The notes: a model not told the origin generated them from the sequence alone. A DNA stretch of 64,000 nt from Balanoglossus misakiensis (GCA_040954595.2 CM082588.2:8788844-8852843); one strand, 5' to 3'; positions 5,521 to 64,000 are shown, numbered from the stretch's first letter. A program made the numbers and translations.

Positions 5521-5540
5521 GGGTTGGGTTGTATATGACC

Positions 5541-7725: not shown

Positions 7726-7790
7726 ACACAACTTGTGTCTTCAGTGTTCAACAGTTTTGATATTTATCCTTTTTGTTCTTCCTATTTTAA

Positions 7791-8870: not shown

Positions 8871-9041
8871 CTATTTCTTTGAAAGTTGGTCTCCAAGAAC
8901 CAGAAGGACACGCCTAGCTACAGCTGGGGAGTCCAGCTGAAACTGCTCTGCTAATCCTACGTCCATTCGAGCTGAACGAATAGCCTCTTTCAATGCAAGG
9001 AACGCAGAGTTTGCCAGTACAACTGCTTGTTCACCAATACC
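8871..9041 (-). CDS. xdh: Terminal coding exon of a xanthine dehydrogenase/aldehyde oxidase family molybdoflavoenzyme
   Basis: Minus-strand translation is GIGEQAVVLANSAFLALKEAIRSARMDVGLAEQFQLDSPAVARRVLLVLGDQLSKK* (171 nt). This matches the XDH/AOX C-terminus (SK-AVGEPPLFLA..VFFAIKDAI.AAR...GL...F.LDSPAT). It is preceded by a phase-0 acceptor ttttcaaaag| exactly where the conserved SK/xxGE junction falls. XDH versus AOX cannot be resolved from this exon. Confidence 0.88.
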   Translation of the reverse strand, partial: GIGEQAVVLANSAFLALKEAIRSARMDVGLAEQFQLDSPAVARRVLLVLGDQLSKK

Positions 9042-9342
9042 CTTTTGAAAATAATCAAATGTATAATCACTAACATTTTATGATAATCAGAAACTCTCAA
9101 TAGGTTATATTGAGATGCAATATGATTGAAACCAGAGTGAAATTCTTTTCTCACCAGAATGAAGACATTGCAAGTACAATGTACAAGTAAAAATAAATAA
9201 GGATGTCAATAAGTAAATAAATGATCGAAGCGCCTTTAAAGGGGCAATTTTCAATCCCTGGTGCTCGCATTAGCTCTATGAGTTAAATTTTCAACAATTC
9301 TCAAGATATTTGTGTGCGTTTTGCTCCGAAAGTAAATACAAG

Positions 9343-9994
9343 GTGATTTTAAGTTTACAATTATTTAATGTGCATGAAGAACCATTTCGGAATAATATTT
9401 GAAATGGGCAGTTTTCATAATTTGCATAAATTCAATATGGTGAACAGAATTCCTAGAAAACCATATTTGGATTATTACATAAATGCTAGAACCTTAATAT
9501 ATATGCCGGAGTATGATAAGCAGTCGAACATTCATTTGGCGGCCATATTGGATTTATGGAACATATAAAGTGCAAATGTAAACAAAATATTTTCAAAATT
9601 GTTCCAAATGTCATAGAGGTAATTTTGAATTCAAAAACACTAAAATAGCTTACTAAGTATCCGATATACTGCCGAAATATGTGTTTTTAAGGAATACTGT
9701 CCGCCATATTGAGTTTATGCAAATCATGAAAACTGCCAATGCCAAATATTATTCCAAAATGGTTCTTCATGCACATTAAATAATTTTAAACTTAAAAATC
9801 ACGGAAAAATCATGTTTATTTCTTGACATTTTGCCCAAAATTTTCAATATTAAATTTATGCAAATTAGACATATTTCCACAAGGTGGATTCTGGTGCATT
9901 TTAATTTGTTGTTCTAGGCACCTCTCCTATGCATTTTGAAGAAAAAAATTATGTTGCAATTTGTGGTGGGTCTAGCTCTATATTGACTAGACTA
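9343..9994. mobile_element. Truncated non-autonomous DNA transposon with an internal ~125-bp inverted repeat and a TAGTCTAGTCAAT-type (Academ-like) terminus
   Basis: Arms 9343-9467 and 9676-9802 are closely matching reverse complements. The right end is ...attgactagacta (9994); a matching left terminus was not found. Confidence 0.55.
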
Positions 9995-12900
9995 CTAGTT
10001 TACTCTCGATTACACACAAAGTTAGCCCCATTTCACTTGTATACATATTTACGCAAATTTCCTTCTCCTGTTCCCATTCGTTATATACCACGCCTGCTTA
10101 AAGGACACCGACTTAGCACGGTGTCCTTCTAATTCAGCGGGGACTTGAGCTTGGTCCCGCCGAGGTAGCGGGGAGACGTCGCACACAAGCTGCCTTTCCA
10201 TCTCCTGTTCACATGCGTTATATACCACGCCTGCTTAAAGGACACCGACTTAGCACAATGTCTTTCTAATTCGGCGGGGACTTGAGCTTGGTCCCGCCGA
10301 GGTAACCGGGAGACGTAGCACACTAGCTGCCCTTCCTTCCCCTGTTCCATTCGTTATATACCACGCCTGCTTAAAGGACACCGACTTAGCACAATGTCTT
10401 TCTAATTCGGCGGGGACTTGAGCTTGGTCCCGCCGAGGTAGCGGGGAGACGTCGCACACAAGCTGCCTTTCCTTCTCCTGTTCACATGCGTTATATACCA
10501 CACCTACTTAAAGGACACCGACTTAGCACAGTATCTTTCTTATTCGGCGGGGACTTGAGCTTGGTCCCCCCGAGGTAACCGGGAGACGTCGCACACTAGC
10601 TGCCCTTCCCTTTCTTGTTCCCATGCGTTATATACCACGCCTGCTTAAAGGACACCGACTTAGCACGTTGTCTTTCTAATGCGGCGGGGACTTGAGCTTG
10701 GTCCCGCTGAGGTAGCCGGGAGACGTCGCACACTAGCTGCCCTTCCCTTTCTTGTTCCTATGCGTTATATACCACGCATACTTAAAGGTCACCGACTTAG
10801 CGCGTTGTCTTTCTAATTCGGCAGGGACTTGAGCTTGGTCCCGCCGAGGTAGCGGGGAGACGTCGCACACTAGCTGCCTTTCCTTTTCCTGTTCCCATGC
10901 GTTATATACCACGCCTGCTTAAAGGACACCGACTTATCGCGTTGTCTTTCTAATTCGGCGGGGACTTGAACTTGGTCCCGTCGAGGTAGCGGGGAGATGT
11001 CGTACACTAGCTGCCCTTCCTTCCCCTGTTCCCATGCGTTATATACCGCGCCTTCTTAAGGACACAGACTTTGCGCATTGTCTCTCTTATTCGGCGGGGA
11101 CTTGAGCTTGGTCCCGCCGAGGTAACCGGGAGACGTCGCACACTAGCTGCCCTTCCTTTTCCTGTTCCCATGCGTTATATACCACACCTGCTTAAAGGAC
11201 ACCGACTTAGCGCGATGTCTTTCTAATTCGGCGGGCACTTGAGCTTGGTCCCGCCGAGGTAACAGGGGAGACGTCGCACACTAGCTGCACTTCCTTCCCC
11301 TCTTCCCATGCGTTATATACCACGCCTGCTTAAAGGACACCGACTAAAGCACGTTGTCTTTTTAATTCGGCGGGGACTTGAGCTTGGTCCCGTCGAGGTA
11401 GCCGGGAGACGTCGCACACTAGCTGCCCTTCCTTCTCTTGTTCCCATGCGTTATATACCACGCCTGCTTAAAGGACACCGACTTAGCGTGTTGTCTTTCT
11501 AATTCTGCGGGGACTTGAGCTTGGTCCCGCCGCGGTAGCAGGGAGACGTCGCACACTAGCTGCACTTCCTTCCCCTGTTCCCATGCGTTATATACCACGC
11601 CTGCTTAAAGGACACCGACTTGGCGCGTTGTCTTTCTAATTCGGCGGGGACTTGAGCTTGGTCCCGCCGAGGTAGCCGGGAGACGTCGCACACTAGCTGC
11701 CCTTCCTTCTCTTGTTCCCATGCGTTATATACCACGCCTGCTTAAAGGACACCGACTTGGCGCGTTGTCTTTCTAATTCGGTGGGGACTTGAGCTTGGTC
11801 CCGCCGAGGTAACCGGGAGATGTCGCACACTAGCTGCCCTTCCTTCCCCTGTTCCCATGCGTTATATACCACGCCTGCTTAAAGGACACCGACTTAGCGC
11901 GTTGTCTTTCTAATTCGGCGGGGACTTGAGCTTGGTCCCGCCGAGGTAACAGGGAGACGTCGCACACTAGCTTCACTTCCTTCCCCTGTTCCCATGCGTT
12001 ATATACCACGCCTGCTTAAAGGACACCGACTTAGCACGTTGTCTTTCTAATTCGGCGGGGACTTGAGCTTGGTCCCGCCGAGGTAACCGGGACACGACGC
12101 ACACTAGCTGCCCTTCCTTCCCCTATTCCCATGCGTTATATACCACGCCTGCTTAAAGGACACCGACTTAGCGCGTTGTCTTTCTAATTCGGCGGGGACT
12201 TGAGCTTGGTCCCGCCGAGGTAACCGGGAGACGTCGCACACTAGCTGCCCTTCCTTCCCCTGTTCCTATGCGTTATATATCACGCCTGTTTAAAGGACAC
12301 CGACTTAGCGCGTTGTCTTTCTAATTCGGTGGGGACTTGAGCTTGGTCCCGCCGAGGTAGTGGGGAGACGTCGCACACTAGCTGCCCTTCCTTCCCCTGT
12401 TCCAATGCGTTATATACCGCGCCTTCTTAAGGACACATACTTTGCGCATTGTCTCTCTTATTCGGCGGGGACTTGAGCTTGGTCCCGCCGAGGTAACCGG
12501 GAGACGTCGCACACTAGCTGCCCTTCCTTTTCCTGTTCCTATGCGTTATATACCACACCTGCTTAAAGGACACCGACTTAGCGCGATGTCTTTCTAATTC
12601 GGCGGGGACTTGAGCTTGGTCCCGCCGAGGTAGTGGGGAGACGTCGCACACTAGCTGCCCTTCCTTCCCCTGTTCCCATGCGTTATATACCACGCCTGCT
12701 TAAAGGACACCGACTTGGCGCGTTGTCTTTCTAATTCAGTGGGGACTTGAGCTTGGTCCCGCCGAGGTAACCGGGAGATGTCGCACACTAGCTGCCCTTC
12801 CTTCCCCTGTTCCCATGCGTTATATACCACGCCTGCTTAAAGTACACCGACTTAGCGCGTTGTCTTTCTAATTCGGCGGGGACTTGAGCTTGGTCCCGCC

Positions 12901-15900
12901 GAGGTAACAGGGAGACGTCGCACACTAGCTGCACTTCCTTCCCCTGTTCCCATGCGTTATATACCACGCCTGCTTAAAGGACACCGACTTAGCGCGTTGT
13001 CTTTCTAATTCGGCGGGGACTTGAGCTTGGTCCCGCCGAGGTAACCGGGAGACGTCGCACACTAGCTGCCCTTCCTTCTCTTGTTCCCATGCGTTATATA
13101 CCACGCCTGCTTAAAGGACACCGACTTGGCGCGTTGTCTTTCTAATTCGGTGGGGACTTGAGCTTGGTCCCGCCGAGGTAACCGGGAGATGTCGCACACT
13201 AGCTGCCCTTCCTTCCCCTGTTCCCATGCGTTATATACCACGCCTGCTTAAAGGACACCGACTTAGCACGTTGTCTTTCTAATTCGGCGGGGACTTGAGC
13301 TTGGTCCCGCCGAGGTAACCGGGACACGACGCACACTAGCTGCCCTTCCTTCCCCTATTCCCATGCGTTATATACCACGCCTGCTTAAAGGACACCGACT
13401 TAGCGCGTTGTCTTTCTAATTCGGCGGGGACTTGAGCTTGGTCCCGCCGAGGTAACCGGGAGACGTCGCACACTAGCTGCCCTTCCTTCCCCTGTTCCCA
13501 TGCGTTATATATCACGCCTGTTTAAAGGACACCGACTTAGCGCGTTGTCTTTCTAATTCGGCGGGGACTTGAGCTTGGTCCCGCCGAGGTAGTGGGGAGA
13601 CGTCGCACACTAGCTGCCCTTCCTTCCCCTGTTCCAATGCGTTATATACCGCGCCTTCTTAAGGACACATACTTTGCGCATTGTCTCTCTTATTCGGTGG
13701 GGACTTGAGCTTGGTCCCGCCGAGGTAACCGGGAGACGTCGCACACTAGCTGCCCTTCCTTTTCCTGTTCCTATGCGTTATATACCACACCTGCTTAAAG
13801 GACACCGACTTAGCGCGATGTCTTTCTAATTCGGCGGGGACTTGAGCTTGGTCCCGCCGAGGTAGTGGGGAGACGTCGCACACTAGCTGCCCTTCCTTCC
13901 CCTGTTCCAATGCGTTATATACCGCGCCTTCTTAAGAACACATACTTTGCGCATTGTCTCTCTTATTCGGCGGGGACTTTAGCTTGGTCCCGCCGAGGTA
14001 ACCGGGAGACGTCGCACACTAGCTGCCCTTCCTTTTCCTGTTCCTATGCGTTATATACCACGCCTGCTTAAAGGACACCGACTTAGCACGTTGTCTTTTT
14101 AATTCGGCGGGGACTTGAGCTTGGTCCCGCCGAGGTAGCCGGGAGACGTCGCACACTAGCTGCCCTTCCTTCTCTTGTTCCCATGTGTTATATACCACGC
14201 CTGCTTAAAGGACACCGACTTAGCGCGTTGTCTTTTTAATTCGGCGGAGAATTGAGCTTGGTCCCGTCGAGGTAGCGGGGAGATGTCGTACACTAGCTGC
14301 CCTTCCTTCCCCTGTTCCAATGCATTATATACCACGCCTGCTTAAAGGACACCGACTTTGCGCCTTGTCTTTATAATTCTGTGAGGACTTGAGCTTGGTT
14401 TCGCAGAGGCAGCCAGGACACGACGCACACTAGCTGCACTTCCTTCCCCTGTTCCCATGCGTTATATACCACGCCTGCTTAAAGGACACAGACTTTGCGC
14501 ATTGTCTCTATTATTCGGCGGGGACTTGAGCTAGGTCCCGCCGAGGTAACAGGGGAGACGTCGCACACTAGCTGCACTTCCTTCCCCTGTTCCCATGCGT
14601 TATATACCACGCCTGCCTAAAGGACACCGACTTGGCGCGTTGTCTTTCTAATTCGGCGTGGACTTGAGCTTGGTCCCGCCGAGGTAACAGGGGAGACGTC
14701 GCACACTAGCTGCACTTCCTTCCCCTGTTCCCATGCGTTATATACCACGCCTGCCTAAAGGACACCGACTTGGCGCGTTGTCTTTCTAATTCGGCGGGGA
14801 CTTGATCTTTGTCTCGCCGAGGTAACCGGGAGACGTCGCACACTAGCTGCCCTTCCTTCCCCTGTTCCAATGCGTTATATACCGCGCCTTCTTAAGGACA
14901 CAGACTTTGCGCATTGTCTCTCTTATTCGGCGGGGACTTGAGCTTGGTCCCGCCGAGGTAACCGGGAGACGTCGCACACTAGCTGCCCTTCCTTTTCCTG
15001 TTCCCATGCGTTATATACCACACCTGCTTAAAGGACACCGACTTAGCGCGTTGTCTTTCTAATTCGGCGGGGACTTAAGCTTGGTCCCGCCGAGGTAACA
15101 GGGGAGACGTCGCACACTAGCTGCACTTCCTTCCCCTGTTCCCATGCGTTATATACCACGCCTGCTTAAAGGACACCGACTTGGCGCGTTGTCTTTATAA
15201 TTCTGTGAGGACTTGAGCTTGGTTTCGCAGAGGCAGCCAGGACACGACGCACACTAGCTGCACTTCCTTCCCCTGTTCCCATGCGTTATATACCACGCCT
15301 GCTTAAAGGACACAGACTTTGCGCATTGTCTCTATTATTCGGCGGGGACTTGAGCTAGGTCCCGCCGAGGTAACAGGGGAGACGTCGCACACTAGCTGCA
15401 CTTCCTTCCCCTGTTCCCATGCGTTATATACCACGCCTGCCTAAAGGACACCGACTTGGCGCGTTGTCTTTCTAATTCGGCGTGGACTTGAGCTTGGTCC
15501 CGCCGAGGTAACAGGGGAGACGTCGCACACTAGCTGCACTTCCTTCCCCTGTTCCCATGCGTTATATACCACGCCTGCCTAAAGGACACCGACTTGGCGC
15601 GTTGTCTTTCTAATTCGGCGGGGACTTGATCTTTGTCTCGCCGAGGTAACCGGGAGACGTCGCACACTAGCTGCCCTTCCTTCCCCTGTTCCAATGCGTT
15701 ATATACCGCGCCTTCTTAAGGACACAGACTTTGCGCATTGTCTCTCTTATTCGGCGGGGACTTGAGCTTGGTCCCGCCGAGGTAACCGGGAGACGTCGCA
15801 CACTAGCTGCCCTTCCTTTTCCTGTTCCCATGCGTTATATACCACACCTGCTTAAAGGACACCGACTTAGCGCGTTGTCTTTCTAATTCGGCGGGGACTT

Positions 15901-18900
15901 AAGCTTGGTCCCGCCGAGGTAACAGGGGAGACGTCGCACACTAGCTGCACTTCCTTCCCCTGTTCCCATGCGTTATATACCACGCCTGCTTAAAGGACAC
16001 CGACTTGGCGCGTTGTCTTTTTAATTCGGCGGAGAATTGAGCTTGGTCCCGTCGAGGTAGCGGGGAGATGTCGTACACTAGCTGCCCTTCCTTCCCCTGT
16101 TCCAATGCATTATATACCACGCCTGCTTAAAGGACACCGACTTAGCGCCTTGTCTTTATAATTCTGTGAGGACTTGAGCTTGGTTCCGCAGAGGCAGCCA
16201 GGACACGACGCACACTAGCTGCCCTTCCTTCCCCTGTTCCCATGCGTTATATATCACGCCTGTTTAAAGGACACCGACTTAGCGCGTTGTCTTTCTAATT
16301 CGGCGGGGACTTGAGCTTGGTCCCGCCGAGGTAGTGGGGAGACGTCGCACACTAGCTGCCCTTCCTTCCCCTGTTCCCATGCGTTATATACCACGCCTGC
16401 TTAAAGGACACCGACTTAGCGCGTTGTCTTTCTAATTCGGCGGGGACTTGAGCTTGGTCCCGCCGAGGTAACAGGGAGACGTCGCACACTAGATGCACTT
16501 CCTTCCCCTGTTCCCATGCGTTATATACCACGCCTGCTTAAAGGACACAGACTTTGCGCATTGTCTCTCTTATTCGGCGGGGACTTGAGCTTGGTCCCGC
16601 CGAGGTAACCGGGAGACGTCGCACACTAGCTGCCCTTCCTTTTCCTGTTCCCATGCGTTATATACCACACCTGCTTAAAGGACACCGACTTAGCGCGTTG
16701 TCTTTCTAATTCGGCGGGGACTTGAGCTTGGTCCCGCCGAGGTAACAGGGGAGACGTCGCACACTAGCTGCACTTCCTTCCCCTGTTCCCATGCGTTATA
16801 TACCACGCCTGCTTAAAGGACACCGACTTAGCACGTTGTCTTTTTAATTCGGCGGGGACTTGAGCTTGGTCCCGCCGAGGTAGCCGGGAGACGTCGCACA
16901 CTAGCTGCCCTTCCTTCTCTTGTTCCCATGCGTTATATACCACGCCTGCTTAAAGGACACCGACTTAGCGTGTTGTCTTTCTAATTCGGTGGGGACTTGA
17001 GCTTGGTCCCGCCGAGGTAACCGGGAGACGTCGCACACTAGCTGCCCTTCCTTTTCCTGTTCCTATGCGTTATATACCACGCCTGCTTAAAGGACACCAA
17101 CTTAGCACGTTGTCTTTTTAATTCGGCGGGGACTTGAGCTTGGTCCCGCCGAGGTAGCCGGGAGACGTCGCACACTAGCTGCCCTTCCTTCTCTTGTTCC
17201 CATGTGTTATATACCACGCCTGCTTAAAGGACACCGACTTAGCACGTTGTCTTTTTAATTCGGCGGGGACTTGAGCTTGGTCCCGCCGAGGTAGCCGGGA
17301 GACGTCGCACACTAGCTGCCCTTCCTTTTCCTGTTCCTATGCGTTATATACCACGCCTGCTTAAAGGACACCAACTTAGCACGTTGTCTTTTTAATTCGG
17401 CGGGGACTTGAGCTTGGTCCCGCCGAGGTAGCCGGGAGACGTCGCACACTAGCTGCCCTTCCTTCTCTTGTTCCCATGTGTTATATACCACGCCTGCTTA
17501 AAGGACACCGACTTAGCGCGTTGTCTTTTTAATTCGGCGGAGAATTGAGCTTGGTCCCGTCGAGGTAGCGGGGAGATGTCGTACACTAGCTGCCCTTCCT
17601 TCCCCTGTTCCAATGCATTATATACCACGCCTGCTTAAAGGACACCGACTTTGCGCCTTGTCTTTATAATTCTGTGAGGACTTGAGCTTGGTTTCGCAGA
17701 GGCAGCCAGGACACGACGCACACTAGCTGCACTTCCTTCCCCTGTTCCCATGCGTTATATACCACGCCTGCTTAAAGGACACAGACTTTGCGCATTGTCT
17801 CTATTATTCGGCGGGGACTTGAGCTAGGTCCCGCCGAGGTAACCGGGAGACGTCGCACACTAGCTGCCCTTCCTTTTCCTGTTCCCATGCGTTATATACC
17901 ACACCTGCTTAAAGGACACCGACTTAGCGCGTTGTCTTTCTAATTCGGCGTGGACTTGAGCTTGGTCCCGCCGAGGTAACAGGGGAGACGTCGCACACTA
18001 GCTGCACTTCCTTCCCCTGTTCCCATGCGTTATATACCACGCCTGCCTAAAGGACACCGACTTGGCGCGTTGTCTTTCTAATTCGGCGGGGACTTGATCT
18101 TGGTCTCGCCGAGGTAACCGGGAGACGTCGCACACTAGCTGCCCTTCCTTCCCCTGTTCCAATGCGTTATATACCGCGCCTTCTTAAGGACACAGACTTT
18201 GCGCATTGTCTCTCTTATTCGGCGGGGACTTGAGCTTGGTCCCGCCGAGGTAACCGGGAGACGTCGCACACTAGCTGCCCTTCCTTTTCCTGTTCCCATG
18301 CGTTATATACCACACCTGCTTAAAGGACACCGACTTAGCGCGTTGTCTTTCTAATTCGGCGGGGACTTAAGCTTGGTCCCGCCGAGGTAACAGGGGAGAC
18401 GTCGCACACTAGCTGCACTTCCTTCCCCTGTTCCCATGCGTTATATACCACGCCTGCTTAAAGGACACCGACTTGGCGCGTTGTCTTTTTAATTCGGCGG
18501 AGAATTGAGCTTGGTCCCGTCGAGGTAGCGGGGAGATGTCGTACACTAGCTGCCCTTCCTTCCCCTGTTCCAATGCATTATATACCACGCCTGCTTAAAG
18601 GACACCGACTTAGCGCCTTGTCTTTATAATTCTGTGAGGACTTGAGCTTGGTTCCGCAGAGGCAGCCAGGACACGACGCACACTAGCTGCCCTTCCTTCC
18701 CCTGTTCCCATGCGTTATATATCACGCCTGTTCAAAGGACACCGACTTAGCGCGTTGTCTTTCTAATTCGGCGGGGACTTGAGCTTGGTCCCGCCGAGGT
18801 AGTGGGGAGACGTCGCACACTAGCTGCCCTTCCTTCCCCTGTTCCCATGCGTTATATACCACGCCTGCTTAAAGGACACCGACTTAGCGCGTTGTCTTTC

Positions 18901-21638
18901 TAATTCGGCGGGGACTTGAGCTTGGTCCCGCCGAGGTAACAGGGAGACGTCGCACACTAGCTGCACTTCCTTCCCCTGTTCCCATGCGTTATATACCACG
19001 CCTGCTTAAAGGACACAGACTTTGCGCATTGTCTCTCTTATTCGGCGGGGACTTGAGCTTGGTCCCGCCGAGGTAACCGGGAGACGTCGCACACTAGCTG
19101 CCCTTCCTTTTCCTGTTCCCATGCGTTATATACCACACCTGCTTAAAGGACACCGACTTAGCGCGTTGTCTTTCTAATTCGGCGGGGACTTGAGCTTGGT
19201 CCCGCCGAGGTAACAGGGGAGACGTCGCACACTAGCTGCACTTCCTTCCCCTGTTCCCATGCGTTATATACCACGCCTGCTTAAAGGACACCGACTTAGC
19301 ACGTTGTCTTTTTAATTCGGCGGGGACTTGAGCTTGGTCCCGCCGAGGTAGCCGGGAGACGTCGCACACTAGCTGCCCTTCCTTCTCTTGTTCCCATGCG
19401 TTATATACCACGCCTGCTTAAAGGACACCGACTTAGCGTGTTGTCTTTCTAATTCGGTGGGGACTTGAGCTTGGTCCCGCCGAGGTAACCGGGAGATGTC
19501 GCACACTAGCTGCCCTTCCTTCCCCTGTTCCCATGTGTTATATACCACGCCTGCTTAAAGGACACCGACTTAGCGCGTTGTCTTTCTAATTCGGCGGGGA
19601 CGTGAGCTTGGTCCCGCCGAGGTAACAGGGAGACGTCGCACACTAGCCGCACTTCCTTCCCCTGTTCCCATGCGTTATATACCACGCCTGCTTAAAGGAC
19701 ACCGACTTAGCACGTTGTCTTTCTAATTCGGCGGGGACTTGAGCTTGGTCCCGCCGAGGTAACCGGGACACGACGCACACTAGCTGCCCTTCCTTCCCCT
19801 ATTCCCATGCGTTATATACCACGCCTGCTTAAAGGACACCGACTTAGCGCGTTGTCTTTCTAATTCGGCGGGGACTTGAGCTTGGTCCCGCCGCGGTAGC
19901 AGGGAGACGTCGCACACTAGCTGCACTTCCTTCCCCTGTTCTCATGCGTTATATATCACGCCTGTTTAAAGGACACCGACTTAGCGCGTTGTCTTTCTAA
20001 TTCGGTGGGGACTTGAGCTTGGTCCCGCCGAGGTAACAGGGAGACGTCGCACACTAGCTGCACTTCCTTCCCCTGTTCCCATGCGTTATATACCACGCCT
20101 GCTTAAAGGACACCGACTTAGCGCGTTGTCTTTCTAATTCGGCGGGGACTTGAGCTTGGTCCCGCCGAGGTAACCGGGAGACGTCGCACACTGGCTGCCC
20201 TTCCTTCCCCTGTTCCCATGCGTTATATATCACGCCTGTTTAAAGGACACCGACTTAGCGCGTTGTCTTTCTAATTCGGCGGGGACTTGAGCTTGGTCCC
20301 GCCGAGGTAGTAGGGAGACGTCGCACACTAGCTGCACTTCCTTCCCCTGTTCCCATGCGTTATATACCACGCCTGCTTAAAGGACACCGACTTAGCACGT
20401 TGTCTTTCTAATTCGGCGGGGACTTGAGCTTGGTCCCGCCGAGGTAACCGGGACACGACGCACACTAGCTGCCCTTCCTTCTCTTGTTCCCATGCGTTAT
20501 ATACCACGCCTGCTTAAAGGACACCGACTTAGCGCGTTATCTTTTTAATTCGGCGGAGAATTGAGCTTGGTTCCGCAGAGGCAGCGGGGAGATGTCGTAC
20601 ACTAGCTGCCCTTCCTTCCCCTGTTCCCATGCGTTATATATCACGCCTGTTTAAAGGACACCGACTTAGCGCGTTGTCTTTCTAATTCGGCGGGGACTTG
20701 AGCTTGGTCCCGCCGAGGTAGTGGGGAGACGTCGCACACTAGCTGCCCATCCTTCCCCTGTTCCCATGCGTTATATACCACGCCTGCTTAAAGGACACCG
20801 ACTTAGCGCGTTGTCTTTCTAATTCGGCGGGGACTTGAGCTTGGTCCCGCCGAGGTAACCGGGACACGACGCACACTAGCTGCCCTTCCTTCCCCTATTC
20901 CCATGCGTTATATACCACGCCTGCTTAAAGGACACCGACTTAGCGCGTTGTCTTTCTAATTCGGCGGGGACTTGAGCTTGGTCCCGCCGAGGTAACCGGG
21001 AGACGTCGCACACTAGCTGCCCTTCCTTCCCCTGTTCCCATGCATTATATATCACGCCTGCTTAAAGGACACCGACTTAACGCGTTGTCTTTTTAATTCG
21101 GCGGAGAATTGAGCTTGGTCCCGCCGAGGTAGTGGGGAGACGTCGCACACTAGCTGCCCTTCCTTCCCCTGTTCCAATGCGTTATATACCGCGCCTTCTT
21201 AAGGACACAGACTTTGCGCATTGTCTCTCTTATTCGGCGGGGACTTGAGCTTGGTCCCGCCGAGGTAACCAGGAGACGTCGCACACTAGCTGCCCTTCCT
21301 TTTCCTGTTCCCATGCGTTATATACCACACCTGCTTAAAGGACACCGAATTAGCGCGATGTCTTTCTAATTCGGCGGGGACTTGAGCTTGGTCCCGCCGA
21401 GGTAACAGGGGAGACGTCGCACACTAGCTGCACTTCCTTCCCCTGTTCACAATTCGTTATATACCACGCCTGCTTAAAGGACACCGACTTAGCACGTTGT
21501 CTTTTTAATTCGGCGGGGACTTGAGCTTGGTCCCGCCGAGGTAGTCGGGAGACGTCGCACACTAGCTGCCCTTCCTTCTCTTGTTCCCATGCGTTATATA
21601 CCACGCCTGCTTAAAGGACACCGACTTAGCGTGTTGTC

Positions 21639-28000: not shown

Positions 28001-28299
28001 GTGGGGAGACGTCGCACACTAGCTGCCCTTCCTTCCCCTGTTCCCATGCGTTATATACCACGCCTGCTTAAAGGACACCGACTTAGCGCGTTGTCTTTCT
28101 AATTCGGCGAGGACTTGAGCTTGGTCCCGCCGAGGTAACCGGGACACGACGCACACTAGCTGCCCTTCCTTCCCCTATTCCCATGCGTTATATACCACGC
28201 CTGCTTAAAGGACACCGACTTAGCGCGTTGTCTTTCTAATTCGTCGGGGACTTGAGCTTGTTCCCGCCGAGGTAACCGGGAGACGTCGCACACTAGCTG

Positions 28300-52200: not shown

Positions 52201-55200
52201 CTTGAGCTTGGTCCCGCCGAGGTAGTGGGGAGACGTCGCACACTAGCTGCCCTTCCTTCCCCTGTTCCCATGCGTTATATACCACGCCTGCTTAAAGGAC
52301 ACCGACTTAGCGCGTTGTCTTTCTCATTCGGCGGGGACTCTAGCTTGGTCCCGCCGAGGTAACAGGGAGACGTCACACACTAGCTGCACTTCCTTCCCCT
52401 GTTCCCATGCGTTATATACCACGCCTGCTTAAAGGACACCGACTTAGCACGTTGTCTTTCTAATTCGGCGGGGACTTGAGCTTGGTCCCGCCGAGGTAAC
52501 CGGGACACGACGCACACTAGCTGCCCTTCCTTCCCCTATTCCCATGCGTTATATACCACGCCTGCTTAAAGGACACCGACTTAACGCGTTGTCTTTCTAA
52601 TTCGGCGGGGACTTGAGCTTGGTCCCGCCGAGGTAACCGGGAGACGTCGCACACTAGCTGCCCTTCCTTCCCCTGTTCCCATGCGTTATATATCACGCCT
52701 GCTTAAAGGACACCGACTTAGCGCGTTGTCTTTTTAATTCGGCGGAGAATTGAGCTTGGTCCCGCCGAGGTAGTGGGGAGACGTCGCACACTAGCTGCCC
52801 TTCCTTCCCCTGTTCCAATGCGTTATATACCGCGCCTTCTTAAGGACACAGACTTTGCGCATTGTCTCTCTTATTCGGCGGGGACTTGAGCTTGGTCCCG
52901 CCGAGGTAACCGGGAGACGTCGCACACTAGCTGCCCTTCCTTTTCCTGTTCCCATGCGTTATATACCACACCTGCTTAAAGGACACCGACTTAGCGCGAT
53001 GTCTTTCTAATTCGGCGGGGACTTGAGCTTGGTCCCGCCGAGGTAACAGGGGAGACGTCGCACACTAGCTGCACTTCCTTTCCCTGTTCCCATGCGTTAT
53101 ATACCACGCCTGCTTAAAGGACACCGACTTAGCACGTTGTCTTTTTAATTCGGCGGGGACTTGAGCTTGGTCCCGCCGAGGTAGCCGGGAGACGTCGCAC
53201 ACTAGCTGCCCTTCCTTCTCTTGTTCCCATGCGTTATATACCACGCCTGCTTAAAGGACACCGACTTAGCGTGTTGTCTTTCTAATTCTGCGGGGACTTG
53301 AGCTTGGTCCCGCCGCGGTAGCAGGGAGACGTCGCACACTAGCTGCACTTCCTTCCCCTGTTCCCATGCGTTATATACCACGCCTGCTTAAAGGACACCG
53401 ACTTGGCGCGTTGTCTTTCTAATTCGGCGGGGACTTGAGCTTGGTCTCGCCGAGGTAACCGGGAGACGTCGCACACTAGCTGCCTTTCCTTCCCCTGTTC
53501 CCGTGCGTTATATACCACGCCTGCTTAAAGGACACCGACTTAGCGTGTTGTCTTTCTAATTCTGCGGGGACTTGAGCTTGGTCCCGTCGCGGTAGCAGGG
53601 AGACGTCGCACACTAGCTGCACTTCCTTCCCCTGTTCCCATGCGTTATATACCACGCCTGCTTAAAGGACACCGACTTGGCGCGTTGTCTTTCTAATTCG
53701 GCGGGGACTTGAGCTTGGTCTCGCCGAGGTAGCCGGGAGACGTCGCACACTAGCTGCCCTTCCTTCTCTTGTTCCCATGCGTTATATACCACGCCTGCTT
53801 AAAGGACACCGACTTGGCGCGTTGTCTTTCTAATTAGGCGGGGACTTGATCTTGGTCTCGCCGAGGTAACCGGGAGACGTCGCACACTAGCTGCCCTTCC
53901 TTCCCCTGTTCCAATGCGTTATATACCGCGCCTTCTTAAGGACACAGACTTTGCGCATTGTCTCTCTTATTCGGCGGGGACTTGAGCTTGGTCCCGCCGA
54001 GGTAACCGGGAGACGTCGCACACTAGCTGCCCTTCCTTTTCCTGTTCCCATGCGTTATATACCACACCTGCTTAAAGGACACCGACTTAGCGCGTTGTCT
54101 TTTTAATTCGGCGGAGAATTGAGCTTGGTCCCGCCGAGGTAGTGGGGAGACGTCGCACACTAGCTGCCCTTCCTTCCCCTGTTCCAATGCGTTATATACC
54201 GCGCCTTCTTAAGGACACAGACTTTGCGCATTGTCTCTCTTATTCGGCGGGGACTTCAGCTTGGTCCTGCCGAGGTAACCGGGAGACGTCGCACACTAGC
54301 TGCCCTTCCTTTTCCTGTTCCCATGCGTTATATACCACACCTGCTTAAAGGACACCGACTTAGCGCGATGTCTTTCTAATTCGGCGGGGACTTGAGCTTG
54401 GTCCCGCCGAGATAACAGGGGAGACGTCGCACACTAGCTGCACTTCCTTCCCCTGTTCCCATGCGTTATATACCACGCCTGCTTAAAGGACACCGACTTA
54501 GCACGTTGTCTTTTTAATTCGGCGGGGACTTGAGCTTGGTCCCGCCGAGGTAGCCGGGAGACGTCGCACACTAGCTGCCGTTCCTTCTCTTGTTCCCATG
54601 CGTTATAAACCACGCCTTCTTAAAGGACACCGACTTAGCGCGTTGTCTTTCTAATTCGGCGGGGACTTGAGCTTGGTCCCGACGAGGTAACAGGGAGACG
54701 TCGCACACTAGCTGCACTTCCTTCCCCTGTTCCCATGCGTTATATACCACGCCTGCTTAAAGGACACCGACTTAGCACGTTGTCTTTCTAATTCGGCGGG
54801 GACTTGAGCTTGGTCCCGCCGAGGTAACCGGGACACGACGCACACTAGCTGCCCTTCCTTCCCCTATTCCCATGCGTTATATACCACGCCTGCTTAAAGG
54901 ACACCGACTTAGCGCGTTGTCTTTCTAATTCGGCGGGGACTTGAGCTTGGTCCCGCCGAGGTAACCGGGAGACGTCGCACACTGGCTGCCCTTCCTTCCC
55001 CTGTTCCCATGCGTTATATATCACGCCTGTTTAAAGGACACCGACTTAGCGCGTTGTCTTTCTAATTCGGCGGGGACTTGAGCTTGGTCCCGCCGAGGTA
55101 ACAGGGGAGACGTCGCACACTAGCTGCACTTCCTTCCCCTGTTCCAATGCGTTATATACCGCGCCTTCTTAAGGACACAGACTTTGCGCATTGTCTCTCT

Positions 55201-57560
55201 TATTCGGCGGGGACTTGAGCTTGGTCCCGCCGAGGTAACCGGGAGACGTCGCACACTAGCTGCCCTTCCTTTTCCTGTTCCCATACGTTATATACCACGC
55301 CTGCTTAAAGGACACCGACTTAGCGCGTTGTCTTTTTAATTCGGCGGAGAATTGAGCTTGGTCCCGCCGAGGTAGTGGGGAGACGTCGCACACTAGCTGC
55401 CCTTCCTTCCCCTGTTCCAATGCGTTATATACCGCGCCTTCTTAAGGACACAGACTTTGCGCATTGTCTCTCTTATTCGGCGGGAACTTGAGCTTGGTCC
55501 TGCCGAGGTAACCGGGAGACGTCGCACACTAGCTGCCCTTCCTTTTCCTGTTCCCATGCGTTATATACCACACCTGCTTAAAGGACACCGACTTAGCGCG
55601 ATGTCTTTCTAATTCGGCGGGGACTTGAGCTTGGTCCCGCCGAGATAACAGGGGAGACGTCGCACACTAGCTGCACTTCCTTCCCCTGTTCCCATGCGTT
55701 ATATACCACGCCTGCTTAAAGGACACCGACTTAGCACGTTGTCTTTTTAATTCGGCGGGGACTTGAGCTTGGTCCCGCCGAGGTAGCCGGGAGACGTCGC
55801 ACACTAGCTGCCGTTCCTTCTCTTGTTCCCATGCGTTATATACCACGCCTGCTTAAAGGACACCGACTTAGCGCCTTGTCTTTCTAATTCGGCGGGGACT
55901 TGAGCTTGGTCCCGACGAGGTAACAGGGAGACGTCGCACACTAGCTGCACTTCCTTCCCCTGTTCCCATGCGTTATATACCACGCCTGCTTAAAGGACAC
56001 CGACTTAGCACGTTGTCTTTCTAATTCGGCGGGGACTTGAGCTTGGTCCCGCCGAGGTAACCGGGACACGACGCACACTAGCTGCCCTTCCTTCCCCTAT
56101 TCCCATGCGTTATATACCACGCCTGCTTAAAGGACACCGACTTAGCGCGTTGTCTTTCTAATTCGGCGGGGACTTGAGCTTGGTCCCGCCGAGGTAACCG
56201 GGAGACGTCGCACACTGGCTGCCCTTCCTTCCCCTGTTCCCATGCGTTATATATCACGCCTGTTTAAAGGACACCAACTTAGCGCGTTGTCTTTCTAATT
56301 CGGCGGGGACTTGAGCTTGGTCCCGCCGAGGTAGTGGGGAGAAGTCGCACACTATCTGCCCTTCCTTCCCCTGTTCCAATGCGTTATAAACCGCGCCTTC
56401 TTAAGGACACAGACTTTGCGCATTGTCTCTCTTATTCGGCGGGGACTTGAGCTTGGTCCCGCCGAGGTAACCGGGAGACGTCGCACACTAGCTGCCCTTC
56501 CTTTTCCTGTTCCCATGCGTTATATACCACACCTGCTTAAAGGACACCGACTTAGCACGTTGTCTTTCTAATTCGGCGGGGACTTGAGCTTGGTCCCGCC
56601 GAGGTAACCGGGAGATGTCGCACACTAGCTGCCCTTCCTTCCCCTGTTCCAATGCATTATATACCACGCCTGCTTAAAGGACACCAACTTAGCGCCTTGT
56701 CTTTATAATTCTGTGAGGACTTGAGCTTGGTTCCGCAGAGGCAGCCAGGACACGACGCACACTAGCTGCCCTTCCTTCCCCTGTTCCCATGCGTTATATA
56801 TCACGCCTGTTTAAAGGACACCGACTTATCGCGTTGTCTTTCTAATTTGGCGGGGACTTGAGCTTGGTCCCGCCGAGGTAGTGGGGAGACGTCGCACACT
56901 AGCTGCCCTTCCTTCCCCTGTTCCCATGCGTTATATCCCACGCCTGCTTAAAGGACACCGACTTAGCGCGTTGTCTTTCTAATTCGGCGGGGACTTGAGC
57001 TTGGTCCCGCCGAGGTAACAGGGAGACGTCGCACACTAGCTGCACTTCCTTCCCCTGTTCCCATGCGTTATATACCACGCCTGCTTAAAGGACACCGACT
57101 TAGCGCGTTGTCTTTCTAATTCGGCGGGGACTTGAGCTTGGTCCCGCCGAGGTAACCGGGAGACGTCGCACACTAGCTGCCCTTCCTTCCCCTGTTCCCA
57201 TGCGTTATATATCACGCCTGTTTAAAGGAAACCGACTTAGCGCGTTGTCTTTCTATTTCGGCGGGGACTTGAGCTTGGTCCCGCCGAAGCAGTGGGGAGA
57301 CGTCGCACACTAGCTGCCCTTCCTTCCCCTGTTCCAATGCGTTATATACCGCGCCTTCTTAAGGACACAGACTTTGCGCATTGTCTTTCTAATTCGGCGG
57401 GGACTTGAGCTTGGTCCCGCCGAGGTAACCGGGAGATGTCGCACACTAGCTGCCCTTCCTTCCCCTGTTCCAATGCATTATATACCACGCCTGCTTAAAG
57501 GACACCAACTTAGCGCCTTGTCATTATAATTCTGTGGGGACTTGAGCTTGGTTCCGCAGA
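28300..57560. repeat. Higher-order repeat domain: ~57-monomer (7.8 kb) unit with 63-mer and 38-mer variants
   Basis: The private variant aattAggcgg occurs at 32211, 40833, 48635 and 53836 (spacings 8622, 7802, 5201). Identical spacings are seen for the gacttCagc variant (ORF-track hits at 32517, 41139, 48941, 54142). Domain edges are approximate. Confidence 0.9.
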
Positions 57561-60500
57561 GGCAGCCAGGACACGACGCACACTAGCTGCCCTTCCTTCC
57601 CCTGTTCCCATGCGTTATATATCACGCCTGTTTAAAGGACACCGACTTATCGCGTTGTCTTTCTAATTCGGCGGGGACTTGAGCTTGGTCCCGCCGAGGT
57701 AGTGGGGAGACGTCGCACACTAGCTGCCCTTCCTTCCCCTGTTCCCATGCGTTATATACCACGCCTGCTTAAAGGACACCGACTTAGCGCGTTGTCTTTC
57801 TAATTCGGCGGGGACTTGAGCTTGGTCCCGCCGAGGTAACAGGGAGACGTCGCACACTAGCTGCACTTCCTTCCCCTGTTCCCATGCGTTATATACCACG
57901 CCTGCTTAAAGGACACCGACTTAGCACGTTGTCTTTCTAATTCGGCGGGGACTTGAGCTTGGTCCCGCCGAGGTAACCGGGACACGACGCACACTAGCTG
58001 CCCTTCCTTCCCCCTATTCCCATGCGTTATATACCACGCCTGCTTAAAGGACACCGACTTAGCGCGTTGTCTTTCTAATTCGGCGGGGACTTGAGCTTGG
58101 TCCCGCCGAGGTAACCGGGAGACGTCGCACACTAGCTGCCCTTCCTTCCCCTGTTCCCATGCGTTATATATCACGCCTGTTTAAAGGAAACCGACTTAGC
58201 GCGTTGTCTTTCTAATTCGGCGGGGACTTGAGCTTGGTCCCGCCGAAGCAGTGGGGAGACGTCGCACACTAGCTGCCCTTCCTTCCCCTGTTGCAATGCG
58301 TTATATACCGCGCCTTCTTAAGGACACAGACTTTGCGCATTGTCTCTCTTATTCGGCGGGGACTTGAGCTTGGTCCCGCCGAGGTAACCGGGAGACGTCG
58401 CACACTAGCTGCCCTTCCTTTTCCTGTTCCCATGCGTTATATACCACACCTGCTTAAAGGACACCGACTTAGCGCGATGTCTTTCTAATTCGGCGGGGAC
58501 TTGAGCTTGGTCCCGCCGCGGTAACAGGGGAGACGTCGCACACTAGCTGCACTTCCTTCCCCTGTTCCCATGCGTTTTATACCATGCCTGCTTAAAGGAC
58601 ACCGACTTAGCACGTTGTCTTTTTAATTCGGCGGGGACTTGAGCTTGGTCCCGCCGAGGTAGCCAGGAGACGTCGCACACTAGCTGCCCTTCCTTCTCTT
58701 GTTCCCATGCGTTATATACCACGCCTGCTTAAAGGACACCGACTTAGCGTGTTGTCTTTCTAATTCTGCGGAGACTTGAGCTTGGTCCCGCCGAGGTAGT
58801 TGGGAGACGTCGCACACTAGCTGCCCTTCCTTCCCCTGTTCCCATGCGTTATATCCCACGCCTGCTTAAAGGACACCGACTTAGCGCGTTGTCTTTCTAA
58901 TTCGGCGGGGACTTGAGCTTGGTCCCGACGAGGTAACAGGGAGACGTCGCACACTAGCTGCACTTCCTTCCCCTGTTCCCATGCGTTATATACCACGCCT
59001 GCTTAAAGGACACCGACTTAGCACGTTGTCTTTCTAATTCGGCGGGGACTTGAGCTTGGTCCCGCCGAGGTAACCGGGACACGACGCACACTAGCTGCCC
59101 TTCCTTCCCCTATTCCCATGCGTTATATACCACGCCTGCTTAAAGGACACCGACTTAGCGCGTTGTCTTTCTAATTCGGCGGGGACTTGAGCTTGGTCCC
59201 GCCGAGGTAACCGGGAGACGTCGCACACTGGCTGCCCTTCCTTCCCCTGTTCCCATGCGTTATATATCACGCCTGTTTAAAGGACACCGACTTAGCGCGT
59301 TGTCTTTCTAATTCGGCGGGGACTTGAGCTTGGTCCCGCCGAGGTAGTGGGGAGAAGTCGCACACTATCTGCCCTTCCTTCCCCTGTTCCAATGCGTTAT
59401 ATACCGCGCCTTCTTAAGGACACAGACTTTGCGCATTGTCTCTCTTATTCGGCGGGGACTTGAGCTTGGTCCCGCCGAGGTAACCGGGAGACGTCGCACA
59501 CTAGCTGCCCTTCCTTTTCCTGTTCCCATGCGTTATATACCACACCTGCTTAAAGGACACCGACTTAGCACGTTGTCTTTCTAATTCGGCGGGGACTTGA
59601 GCTTGGTCCCGCCGAGGTAACCGGGAGATGTCGCACACTAGCTGCCCTTCCTTCCCCTGTTCCAATGCATTATATACCACGCCTGCTTAAAGGACACCAA
59701 CTTAGCGCCTTGTCTTTATAATTCTGTGGGGACTTGAGCTTGGTTCCGCAGAGGCAGCCAGGACACGACGCACACTAGCTGCCCTTCCTTCCCCTGTTCC
59801 CATGCGTTATATATCACGCCTGTTTAAAGGACACCGACTTATCGCGTTGTCTTTCTAATTCGGCGGGGACTTGAGCTTGGTCCCGCCGAGGTAGTGGGGA
59901 GACGTCGCACACTAGCTGCCCTTCCTTCCCCTGTTCCCATGCGTTATATACCACGCCTGCTTAAAGGACACCGACTTAGCGCGTTGTCTTTCTAATTCGG
60001 CGGGGACTTGAGCTTGGTCCCGCCGAGGTAACAGGGAGACGTCGCACACTAGCTGCACTTCCTTCCCCTGTTCCCATGCGTTATATACCACGCCTGCTTA
60101 AAGGACACCGACTTAGCACGTTGTCTTTTTAATTCGGCGGGGACTTGAGCTTGGTCCCGCCGAGGTAACCGGGACACGACGCACACTAGCTGCCCTTCCT
60201 TCCCCCTATTCCCATGCGTTATATACCACGCCTGCTTAAAGGACACCGACTTAGCGCGTTGTCTTTCTAATTCGGCGGGGACTTGAGCTTGGTCCCGCCG
60301 AGGTAACCGGGAGACGTCGCACACTAGCTGACCTTCCTTCCCCTGTTCCCATGCGTTATATATCACGCCTGTTTAAAGGACACCGACTTAGCGCGTTGTC
60401 TTTCTAATTCGGCGGGGACTTGAGCTTGGTCCCGCCGAAGCATTGGGGAGACGTCGCACACTAGCTGCCCTTCCTTCCCCTGTTCCAATGCGTTATATAC

Positions 60501-63500
60501 CGCGCCTTCTTAAGGACACAGACTTTGCGCATTGTCTCTCTTATTCGGCGGGGACTTGAGCTTGGTCCCGCCGAGGTAACCGGGAGACGTCGCACACTAG
60601 CTGCCCTTCCTTTTCCTGTTCCCATGCGTTATATACCACACCTGCTTAAAGGACACCGACTTAGCGCGATGTCTTTCTAATTCGGCGGGGACTTGAGCTT
60701 GGTCCCGCCGAGGTAACAGGGGAGACGTCGCACACTAGCTGCACTTCCTTCCCCTGTTCCCATGCGTTATATACCACGCCTGCTTAAAGGACACCGACTT
60801 AGCACGTTGTCTTTTTAATTCGGCGGGGACTTGAGCTTGGTCCCGCCGAGGTAGCCGGGAGACGTCGCACACTAGCTGCCCTTCCTTCTCTTGTTCCCAT
60901 GCGTTATATACCACGCCTGCTTAAAGGACACCGACTTAGCGTGTTGTCTTTCTAATTCTGCGGGGACTTGAGCTTGGTCCCGCCGCGGTAGCAGGGAGAC
61001 GTCGCACACTAGCTGCACTTCCTTCCCCTGTTCCCATGCGTTATATACCACGCCTGCTTAAAGGACACCGACTTGGCGCGTTGTCTTTCTAATTCGGCGG
61101 GGACTTGAGCTTGGTCCCGCCGAGGTAGCCGGGAGACGTCGCACACTAGCTGCCCTTCCTTCTCTTGTTCCCATGCGTTATATACCACGCCTGCTTAAAG
61201 GACACCGACTTGGCGCGTTGTCTTTCTAATTCGGCGGGGACTTGATCTTGGTTTCGCCGAGGTAACCGGGAGACGTCGCACACTAGCTGCCCTTCCTTTT
61301 CCTGTTCCCATGCGTTATATACCACACCTGCTTAAAGGACACCGACTTAGCGCGTTGTCTTTCTAATTCGGCGGGGACTTGAGCTTGGTCCCGCAGAGGT
61401 AACAGGGGAGACGTCGCACACTAGCTGCACTTCCTTCCCCTGTTCCCATGCGTTATATACCACGCCTGCTTAAAGGACACCGACTTAGCACGTTGTCTTT
61501 TTAATTCGGCGGGGACTTGAGCTTGGTCCCGCCGAGGTAGCCGGGAGACGTCGCACACTAGCTGCCCTTCCTTCTCTTGTTCCCATGCGTTATATACCAC
61601 GCCTGCTTAAAGGACACCGACTTAGCGTGTTGTCTTTCTAATTCGGTGGGGACTTGAGCTTGGTCCCGCCGAGGTAACCGGGAGATGTCGCACACTAGCT
61701 GCCCTTCCTTCCCCTGTTTCCATGCGTTATATACCACGCCTGCTTAAAGGACACAGACTTAGCGCGTTGTCTTTCTAATTCGGCGGGGACTTGAGCTTGG
61801 TCCCGCCGAGGTAACAGGGAGACGTCGCACACTAGCTGCACTTCCTTTCCATGTTCCCATGCGTTATATACCACGCCTGCTTAAAGGACACCGACTTAGC
61901 ACGTTGTCTTTCTAATTCGGCGGGGACTTGAGCTTGGTCCCGCCGAGGTAACCGGGACACGACGCACACTAGCTGCCCTTCCTTCCCCTATTCCCATGCG
62001 TTATATACCACGCCTGCTTAAAGGACACCGACTTAGCGCGTTGTCTTTCTAATTCGGCGGGGACTTGAGCTTGGTCCCGCCGAGGTAACCGGGAGACGTC
62101 GCACACTAGCTGCACTTCCTTCCCCTGTTCCCATGCGTTATATACCACGCCTGCTTAAAGGACACCGACTTGGCGCGATGTCTTTCTAATTCGGCGGGGA
62201 CTTGAGCTTGGTCCCGCCGAGGTAACAGGGGAGACGTTTCACACTATCTGCCCTTCCTTCCCCTGTTCCAATGCGTTATATACCGCGCCTTCTTAAGGAC
62301 ACAGACTTTGCGCATTGTCTCTCTTATTCGGCGGGGACTTGAGCTTGGTCCCGCCGAGGTAACCGGGAGACGTCGCACACTAGCTGCCCTTCCTTTTCCT
62401 GTTCCCATGCGTTATATACCACGCCTGCTTAAAGGACACCGACTTAGCGTGTTGTCTTTCTAATTCTGCGGGGACTTGAGCTTGGTCCCGCCGAGGTAGT
62501 GGGGAGACGTCGCACACTAGCTGCCCTTCCTTCCCTGTTCCCATGCGTTATATACCACGCCTGCTTAAAGGACACCGACTTAGCGCGTTGTCTTTCTCAT
62601 TCGGCGGGGACTTGAGCTTGGTCCCGCCGAGGTAACAGGGAGACGTCGCACACTAGTTGCACTTCCTTCCCCTGTTCCAATGCGTTATATACCACGCCTG
62701 CTTAAAGGACACCGACTTAGCACGTTGTCTTTCTAATTCGGCGGGGACTTGAGCTTGGTCCCGCCGAGGTAACCGGGACACGACGCACACTAGCTGCCCT
62801 TCCTTCCCCTATTCCCATGCGTTATATACCACGCCTGCTTAAAGGACACCGACTTAGCGCGTTGTCTTTCTAATTCGGCGGGGACTTGAGCTTGGTCCCG
62901 CCGAGGTAACCGGGAGACGTCGCACACTAGCTGCCCTTCCTTCCCCTGTTCCCATGCGTTATATATCACGCCTGCTTAAAGGACACCGACTTAGCGCGTT
63001 GTCTTTTTAATTCGGCGGAGAATTGAGCTTGGTCCCGCCGAGGTAGTGGGGAGACGTCGCACACTAGCTGCCCTTCCTTCCCCTGTTCCAATGCGTTATA
63101 TACCGCGCCTTCTTAAGGACACAGACTTTGCGCATTGTCTCTCTTATTCGGCGGGGACTTGAACTTGGTCCCGCCGAGGTAACCGGGAGACGTCGCACAC
63201 TAGCTGCCCTTCCTTTTCCTGTTCCCATGCGTTATATACCACACCTGCTTAAAGGACACCGACTTAGCGCGATGTCTTTCTAATTCGGCGGGGACTTGAG
63301 CTTGGTCCCGCCGAGGTAACAGGGGAGACGTCGCACACTAGCTGCACTTCCTTTCCCTGTTCCCATGCGTTATATACAACGCCTGCTTAAAGGACACCGA
63401 CTTAGCACGTTGTCTTTTTAATTCGGCGGGGACTTGAGCTTGGTCCCGCCGAGGTAGCCGGGAGACATCGCACACTAGCTGCCCTTCCTTCTCTTGTTCC

Positions 63501-64000
63501 CATGCGTTATATACCACGCCTGCTTAAAGGACACCGACTTAGCACGTTGTCTTTTTAATTCGGCGGGGACTTGAGCTTGGTCCCGCCGAGGTAGCCGGGA
63601 GACGTCGCACACTAGCTGCCCTTCCTTCTCTTGTTCCCATGCGTTATATACCACGCCTGCTTAAAGGACACCGACTTAGCGTGTTGTCTTTCTAATTCTG
63701 CGGGGACTTGAGCTTGGTCCCGCCGCGGTAGCAGGGAGACGTCGCACACTAGCTGCACTTCCTTCCCCTGTTCCCATGCGTTATATACCACGCCTGCTTA
63801 AAGGACACCGACTTGGCGCGTTGTCTTTCTAATTCGGCGGGGACTTGAGCTTGGTCCCGCCGAGGTAGCCGGGAGACGTCGCACACTAGCTGCCCTTCCT
63901 TCTCTTGTTCCCATGCGTTATATACCACGCCTGCTTAAAGGACACCGACTTGGCGCGTTGTCTTTCTAATTCGGCGGGGACTTGATCTTGGTCTCGCCGA

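What the first reader, a model, noticed from the sequence alone, without database searches (positions are those of the whole stretch)
8871..64000. A ~54-kb or longer satellite array apparently fills the last intron of an XDH/AOX gene, separating off the catalytic-Glu exon
Seen: an intact minus-strand terminal XDH/AOX exon with a splice acceptor at 9042-9043. No penultimate exon (expected to end ...SSK|gt) is recognisable in 9044-10058 or in the array. Established: this exon carries the catalytic base (Glu1261 in bovine xanthine oxidoreductase, motif SKAVGEPP), so it is indispensable. Inference: if the gene is functional, Pol II must read through about 390 or more hairpin-rich monomers and splice an intron of at least 55 kb. 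That would be satellite-driven intron gigantism like the Drosophila Y-loop genes, but in a metabolic gene.
Basis: partly seen in the sequence, partly recalled or inferred. Interest (0 to 1): 0.8.

Follow-up and report, generated by a model that had tools for sequence, protein, structure and literature searches.

The report
Satellite block behind acorn-worm oxidase exon
The last exon of an aldehyde-oxidase-like gene, likely from an acorn worm, lies 1 kb from at least 54 kb of a 137-base repeat that likely fills its last intron as a tolerated passenger, but the rest of the gene was not found and the exon appears to have other copies, so read-through is unproven.

Summary
A minus-strand XDH/AOX terminal exon (9041-8871) starts at a conserved phase-0 intron position. 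A 137-bp head-to-tail array (about 394 units) runs from 10059 to the window end, and no other XDH/AOX exon lies in the window. The exon is not the canonical XDH (SKAVGEPP). It reads GIGEQAVV and falls in an acorn-worm-specific paralog clade whose Glandiceps member lacks the Glu. DNA contigs of what is probably the source animal show three versions of the exon at about four times single-allele depth, so other copies likely exist. Still, 5 of 6 listed differences between copies are silent, which favours a working exon and so an intronic array (about 55%). No genome or RNA run was available to show upstream exons or splicing. The units are not hairpin-rich. The repeat family is roughly 0.05-0.4 Mb in total, not Y-loop scale. 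This scan already noted repeat-filled introns in 35 findings from at least 9 genomes, one in this genome (unchecked notes). Ordinary kind, unproven case.

The parts
8871..9041 (-). Terminal coding exon (56 codons plus TAG) of an XDH/AOX-family gene of an acorn-worm-specific paralog clade; keeps the Glu equivalent to the catalytic base, but the following Pro-Pro reads Gln-Ala
9042..9043 (-). Predicted phase-0 splice acceptor AG in a weak AAG context, at a position conserved in relatives
   Evidence: sequence; 71 of 78 non-joined relatives have Gln (CAG) and 4 have Lys directly before the motif
9044..10058 (-). AT-rich non-coding stretch between exon and array; holds dispersed repeats; no XDH-like exon
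9343..9802 (.). MITE-like dispersed element with inverted arms of 115-128 bp at about 90%
   Evidence: raised depth and opposite-strand joints
10059..64000 (.). Satellite array, 137-bp unit, about 394 copies, one orientation, 55% GC, open at the window end; 148 distinct units among 390; older-looking edge and recently amplified interior
21639..22061 (.). 423-bp non-coding insertion in the array with a 9-bp target-site duplication (21630-21638 and 22062-22070) and a terminal hairpin
29265..43916 (.). Two exact 6,030-bp copies (starting at 29265 and 37887) inside the array; other exact runs of 5.2, 4.2 and 3.5 kb; 8-unit and 38-unit periods
8048..8372 (-). Candidate polyadenylation signals downstream of the stop (AATAAA starting at 8223 and 8053; ATTAAA at 8372 and 8162); use untested

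Best explanation
A 137-bp satellite array of at least 54 kb begins 1 kb upstream of the terminal exon of a divergent acorn-worm-type XDH/AOX paralog, and it likely grew in place inside that gene's last intron, which would be transcribed through and spliced by the ordinary machinery as a tolerated passenger. Shown: the exon, its family and clade, the array, its internal block duplications, and the absence of upstream exons in the window. Inferred: the array expanded by unequal exchange or slippage (exact 1-6 kb blocks inside, more divergent units at the edge, one transposon insertion near the edge). Inferred: it is tolerated because the gene's sense strand of the array has no AATAAA and only one strong donor. 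Inferred: the upstream exons lie beyond position 64000. An intron of 0.05-0.4 Mb would take minutes to a few hours to transcribe (elongation rates recalled), so no Y-loop-like program is needed.
For: The exon starts exactly at a conserved phase-0 intron: of 258 relatives scanned, 149 run through SK/SR, 31 lack the motif, and 71 of the other 78 have Gln (CAG) right before it. The stop falls at the same residue as in the Ptychodera and Glandiceps clade members. Five of 6 listed differences to the majority version in runs X1/X2 are silent (44 silent and 124 replacement sites; P=0.006-0.013, or 0.016-0.033 if the one unlisted difference is a replacement). The one replacement (Ile21 against Val) leaves the window with the residue found in 7 of 7 aligned acorn-worm proteins. 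A copy dead since the split is disfavoured (P=0.012-0.048). No upstream exon fits in the 1 kb before the array. The sense strand of the array has 0 AATAAA and 1 GTAAGT, which lies inside the insert.
Against: No upstream exon and no spliced read was seen. The exon appears multi-copy. Contigs with the window's exact letters have depth 25-26 in X1, the exon contig has 97.9, a second more distant contig adds 48.9, and position 8976 shows three letters in one sample, so another copy could carry the function. The acceptor is AAG and the conserved Pro-Pro is lost. The array's sense strand has 70 ATTAAA. The 6-kb exact blocks show very recent growth or assembly duplication, so the silent-site signal may predate the present size. 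The compared contigs are collapsed and may mix copies.
Confidence: 0.55

Rival explanations
1. The exon is an orphan 3' fragment, a partial segmental duplicate of the gene's end lodged at the edge of a satellite block, while the working gene lies elsewhere with an ordinary last intron. The array would then be intergenic.
For: The exon and its 3' flank show about 3-4 times single-allele depth and three versions in one sample. The other version stops matching the window near 9181 (X2 record 11). No other part of the gene is in 64 kb.
Against: No listed replacement change can be placed on the window's branch despite 5 silent ones (P=0.012-0.048). The frame, the Glu and the stop position are intact.
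Confidence: 0.25
2. The array is intronic, but its recent growth has crippled this copy. Transcripts would end early in the array or skip the weak acceptor, and a duplicate would supply the enzyme. The exon looks intact only because the loss is recent.
For: Exact 1-6 kb blocks indicate recent expansion; 70 ATTAAA on the sense strand; weak AAG acceptor; extra copies likely exist.
Against: No AATAAA on the sense strand. Drosophila genes with 50-100 kb introns did not show attenuation even when splicing was perturbed (PMC11207136, passages).
Confidence: 0.1
3. The junction or the array length is an assembly artefact, produced by a mis-join among duplicated copies or an over-expanded repeat.
For: A duplicated exon region and long exact blocks are the places where assemblies err.
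Against: Units next to the junction are the most distinct in the array (nearest-neighbour distance 3.0 against 0-0.2 in most interior bins), as expected of a natural edge. The repeat family is abundant in the runs.
Confidence: 0.1

Closest known systems
Drosophila Y-loop genes kl-3 and kl-5 (PMC6508621, passages; PMC11207136, passages)
   Same: Satellite DNA would make up nearly all of an intron and be transcribed through.
   Different: Those have megabases of simple repeats, about 90 hours of spermatocyte transcription and dedicated RNA-binding proteins, all shown by experiment. Here the unit is a 137-bp complex repeat, 54 kb are seen and perhaps up to 0.4 Mb exist, and neither the intronic position nor transcription is shown.
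Autosomal giant heterochromatic genes Myo81F, Pzl and Mitf of Drosophila (PMC11207136 and PMC4352887, passages)
   Same: Genes off the Y chromosome with very large repeat-containing introns that are spliced; Myo81F is expressed in larvae and pupae.
   Different: They span 0.7 to over 2.5 Mb with cDNA-verified junctions; here only one exon is in hand.
TRACT, the intronic 30-bp tandem repeat of human CACNA1C, 3-30+ kb (PMC13131567 and 10.1101/311795, search listing and start of abstract only)
   Same: A length-variable tandem array of tens of kb inside an intron of an ordinary gene.
   Different: Shorter unit and array; position and effects were studied directly.
Acorn-worm xanthine dehydrogenase/oxidase-like models XP_070561567 (Ptychodera), XP_077869256 (Saccoglossus), XP_077986243 (Glandiceps)
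   Same: Same clade (support 98/97), 54-66% identity over the exon, shared RRVL tail.
   Different: The window has GEQA where two have GEPP and one has GQAT (no Glu); their intron sizes could not be read.

Membership tests
XDH/AOX molybdo-flavoenzyme family | Sequence homology to the C-terminal Moco domain | tested here: met
   Rat XOR E=3.5e-5; family profile 64.1 bits. Pfam alone gave 0 families for the 57 residues.
XDH/AOX molybdo-flavoenzyme family | Catalytic Glu (mouse AOX1 Glu1265, essential: PMC2671166, passages) | tested here: met
   Codon 4 is Glu and aligns with the Glu of KAVGEPP.
XDH/AOX molybdo-flavoenzyme family | Complete multi-exon frame with Fe-S, FAD and Moco domains | not testable with these tools
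   No other exon in the window; no genome held.
Canonical xanthine dehydrogenase orthologue | Groups with XDH and keeps the GEPP motif | tested here: not met
   Falls in a 4-row acorn-worm clade (98/97) apart from vertebrate XDH, though on 56 columns only; motif GEQA.
Satellite DNA | Long head-to-tail, homogenised array with higher-order blocks | tested here: met
Satellite-filled giant intron | Exons of one gene on both sides of the array | not testable with these tools
   The array runs off the window; no genome held.
Satellite-filled giant intron | Transcript spliced across the array | not testable with these tools
   No RNA run of this stretch was available to lay.
Drosophila Y-loop genes | Simple satellite repeats in the intron | tested here: not met
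   The unit is 137 bp and complex.
Drosophila Y-loop genes | Megabase intron size | tested here: inconclusive
   A rough depth estimate puts the whole repeat family at 54-370 kb per haploid genome; the tool warns that summed depth is no copy number.
Drosophila Y-loop genes | Y linkage, spermatocyte loops, dedicated RNA-binding proteins | not testable with these tools
   No cytology or expression data.

The most novel reading that the evidence does not exclude
A fast-growing complex satellite inside the last intron of one copy of a recently duplicated aldehyde-oxidase-like gene sets that copy's output. Array length governs how many polymerases reach the exon bearing the catalytic Glu, so satellite expansion divides labour between enzyme duplicates. 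The TATA-like word in 380 units, all on the gene's sense strand, may also start internal transcripts.
Probability: 0.07. Interest if true: 0.65.

Novelty: new member of a known kind. Interest (0 to 1): 0.27.

Why it matters
If the upstream exons lie past the array, this adds a deuterostome metabolic-type gene to the cases in which tens to hundreds of kb of tandem repeat sit inside an intron. Because near-identical sister copies likely exist, it could serve as a paired test of what such an array costs in expression. It would not by itself show a new mechanism: repeat-rich giant introns outside the Y are in print (PMC11207136, PMC4352887), and the scan's own unchecked notes list better documented cases with exons on both sides.

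Tried and rejected
Whole genome: none held, so the decisive search beyond 64000 could not be run. Sequencing runs: no RNA holder listed; 3 runs of one sample and one study. I first read X1/X2 as another individual (note). One search showed contigs with 0 differences across 9087-9402, so they are probably the source animal and are not independent support. X3 (recorded as 'DNA?', 28 million letters, longest record 6,357) covers bins from 8120 to 8899 but not 8900-9159 or the array. It may be RNA, but that is a guess, lack of cover proves nothing, and its one listed piece there (8698-8855) carries the other version's letters. No listed contig bridges 10058/10059 with 31 letters on each side; 16 of 470 pieces were shown, so this says nothing either way. 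The exon peptide against longer proteins gave 0 hits among 1,020 candidates (weak by the tool's own note). The top representative hit P0001 is an unrelated-looking repeat protein and was dropped. Metagenome contigs: 0 relatives of the exon among 597 pattern matches and 0 exact matches to a 28-base unit motif, so no baseline of last-intron sizes was obtained. The unit as a structured or small RNA: Rfam gave 1 chance-level hit on 8000-13000 (E=0.32), ARAGORN found 0 genes, and folding was no better than shuffles. The unit as coding sequence: longest stop-free stretch 107 codons. CpG decay in the array was not significant (P=0.09). Scan notes: nothing near this place, nothing on xanthine in this genome, no look-alike of the unit or the locus; one unrelated bacterial note. 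Paper searches listed no paper on satellite-filled introns in acorn worms; the library lacks most subscription journals. No supplements were opened.

Full report
Question.

The exon is real. Positions 9041-8871 give 56 codons and a TAG. The peptide matches the C-terminus of rat xanthine oxidoreductase (E=3.5e-5), its fourth residue, Glu, aligns with the Glu of KAVGEPP, and all 24 listed solved-structure hits are XOR or AOX chains. The equivalent Glu1265 is essential in mouse AOX1 (PMC2671166, passages). A search of 1.84 billion representatives gave 142 hits. After one unrelated-looking repeat protein, the best are Saccoglossus, Ptychodera and Glandiceps 'xanthine dehydrogenase/oxidase-like' models at 63, 66 and 54%, so the window is likely from an acorn worm. 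Of 258 relatives scanned, 149 run through SK or SR into the motif and 31 lack my motif pattern. Of the other 78, 71 have Gln and 4 have Lys directly before it, which is the trace of CAG and AAG acceptors read as coding sequence. The intron position is therefore conserved, and the window's AG at 9043-9042 sits on it, in the weaker AAG form.

It is not the canonical XDH. The motif reads GIGEQAVV. In a 21-row tree (20 chosen relatives plus the exon, which fills only 12% of the columns) it falls in a four-row acorn-worm clade with support 98/97, beside a second acorn-worm clade and apart from vertebrate XDH and AOX. The Glandiceps member has GTGQAT, with no Glu. The residue numbering for the other active-site positions that I checked is recalled. 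The exon is indispensable for an active enzyme from this copy, but nothing shows that this copy is indispensable.

The array is real. It spans 10059-64000 with period 137 and 393.8 copies, in one orientation (392 of 392 hits) at 95.5% mean identity to consensus. Among 390 whole units, 148 are distinct. Units at the exon-side edge are the most distinct, while interior units mostly have exact twins, with 8-unit and 38-unit periods and exact runs up to 6,030 bp. This fits growth by unequal exchange with an older edge, though assembly duplication of interior blocks cannot be excluded. The only interruption is a 423-bp element with a 9-bp target-site duplication. The unit is not a tRNA or an Rfam family, and it folds no better than shuffles (11 folds, z from -1.83 to +0.57), so 'hairpin-rich' is not supported. 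On the gene's sense strand the array has 0 AATAAA, 70 ATTAAA, 1 GTAAGT (in the insert) and 380 TATATAA.

No other exon is in the window. TBLASTN with 38 longer relatives hit only the terminal exon; the next best E-value was 0.12. Profiles of the upstream residues scored at most 3.6 bits against 85.1 for the control, and a full-length profile hit only this exon. Any upstream exons lie beyond 64000 or elsewhere. No genome is held, so this could not be checked.

What the runs add. Two DNA runs of one sample hold the stretch. They contain contigs identical to the window across 9087-9402, so they are probably the source animal and not independent. In X1, contigs with the window's exact letters have depth 25.1 and 25.9, and an alternative at the second place has 29.1. 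The exon contig has 97.9 and six differences, a second contig adds 48.9 at the looser threshold, and 3' flank contigs have 73-84. Position 8976 shows A in the window, T in X1 and C in X2. For one diploid animal this implies two or more loci. It is an inference from contig depths, which the tool warns about, and a pooled sample would also explain it. The six listed exon differences are five silent and one Ile-to-Val, with 44 silent and 124 replacement sites (P=0.006-0.013; 0.016-0.033 if the one unlisted difference is a replacement). The window keeps the Ile seen in 7 of 7 aligned acorn-worm proteins, and a copy dead since the split is disfavoured (P=0.012-0.048). A recent death, or a recent duplicate of an unseen allele, is not excluded. 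Summed depth over the unit suggests 400-2,700 copies per haploid genome, or 54-370 kb, across the assumptions tried. That is rough, but it is below megabase scale.

Most likely working. The array grew inside the last intron of one copy of this paralog and is transcribed and removed by ordinary co-transcriptional splicing (0.55). The rivals are an orphan 3' duplicate at an array edge (0.25), an intronic array that recently crippled this copy (0.10), and a mis-join (0.10).

Comparison. Y-loop genes have megabases of simple repeats and a dedicated expression program (PMC6508621, passages). Drosophila genes with 50-100 kb introns did not attenuate when splicing was perturbed, and the autosomal giant genes Pzl, Myo81F and Mitf have repeat-containing introns and were less affected (PMC11207136, passages; PMC4352887, passages). 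Human CACNA1C carries a 3-30+ kb intronic tandem repeat (PMC13131567, listing only). So the locus may work like a repeat-filled large intron, but it fails the simple-repeat feature of Y-loop genes and its membership among satellite-filled introns is untested. My searches listed no paper on such introns in acorn worms. The scan's own unchecked notes hold 35 findings in at least 9 genomes with these words, among them a 26-kb case in an aldo-keto reductase gene of this genome. I used these as leads, not as support.

Verdict. At best this is a new member of a known kind. Interest 0.27.

Noticed in passing
window 21639-22061: A 423-bp non-coding insertion with a 9-bp target-site duplication, nested short inverted repeats, a hairpin at one end and CpG o/e of 1.47; likely a non-autonomous DNA element of unassigned superfamily.
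   Followed up: partly
window 9030-9181 (run X1, table 5c): One contig (depth 117.5) joins 9181 back to 9030, hinting that a sister copy may carry a tandem repeat of the acceptor and first codons of this exon; the window's copy does not.
   Followed up: no
P0004 (Glandiceps XP_077986243): This clade member has Gln in place of the catalytic Glu and Gly at the position after GGGFGGK; it may be a non-catalytic XDH-like protein.
   Followed up: partly
P0002, P0143, P0003, P0004: All database models of this clade seen here are short (585-1,016 residues against about 1,330), so the gene may be poorly annotated in acorn worms.
   Followed up: no
window 10059-64000: A TATATAA word occurs 380 times on the minus strand and never on the plus strand; CpG o/e is 1.05 in the array against 0.37 in 1-10058.
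   Followed up: partly
window 19-1680 and 5604-6267: Two other tandem repeats: about 4.4 degenerate copies of a 350-386 bp unit, and a nested 32/46/83/115-bp minisatellite.
   Followed up: no
window 3342-3410: A possible plus-strand terminal exon after an AG (three short frames, none identified), which would place another gene tail-to-tail with this one.
   Followed up: no
window 7787-7978 and 8620-8770: Very high-copy short dispersed repeats (summed depth of order 1e5 in X1), the first with opposite-strand joints typical of a MITE.
   Followed up: no
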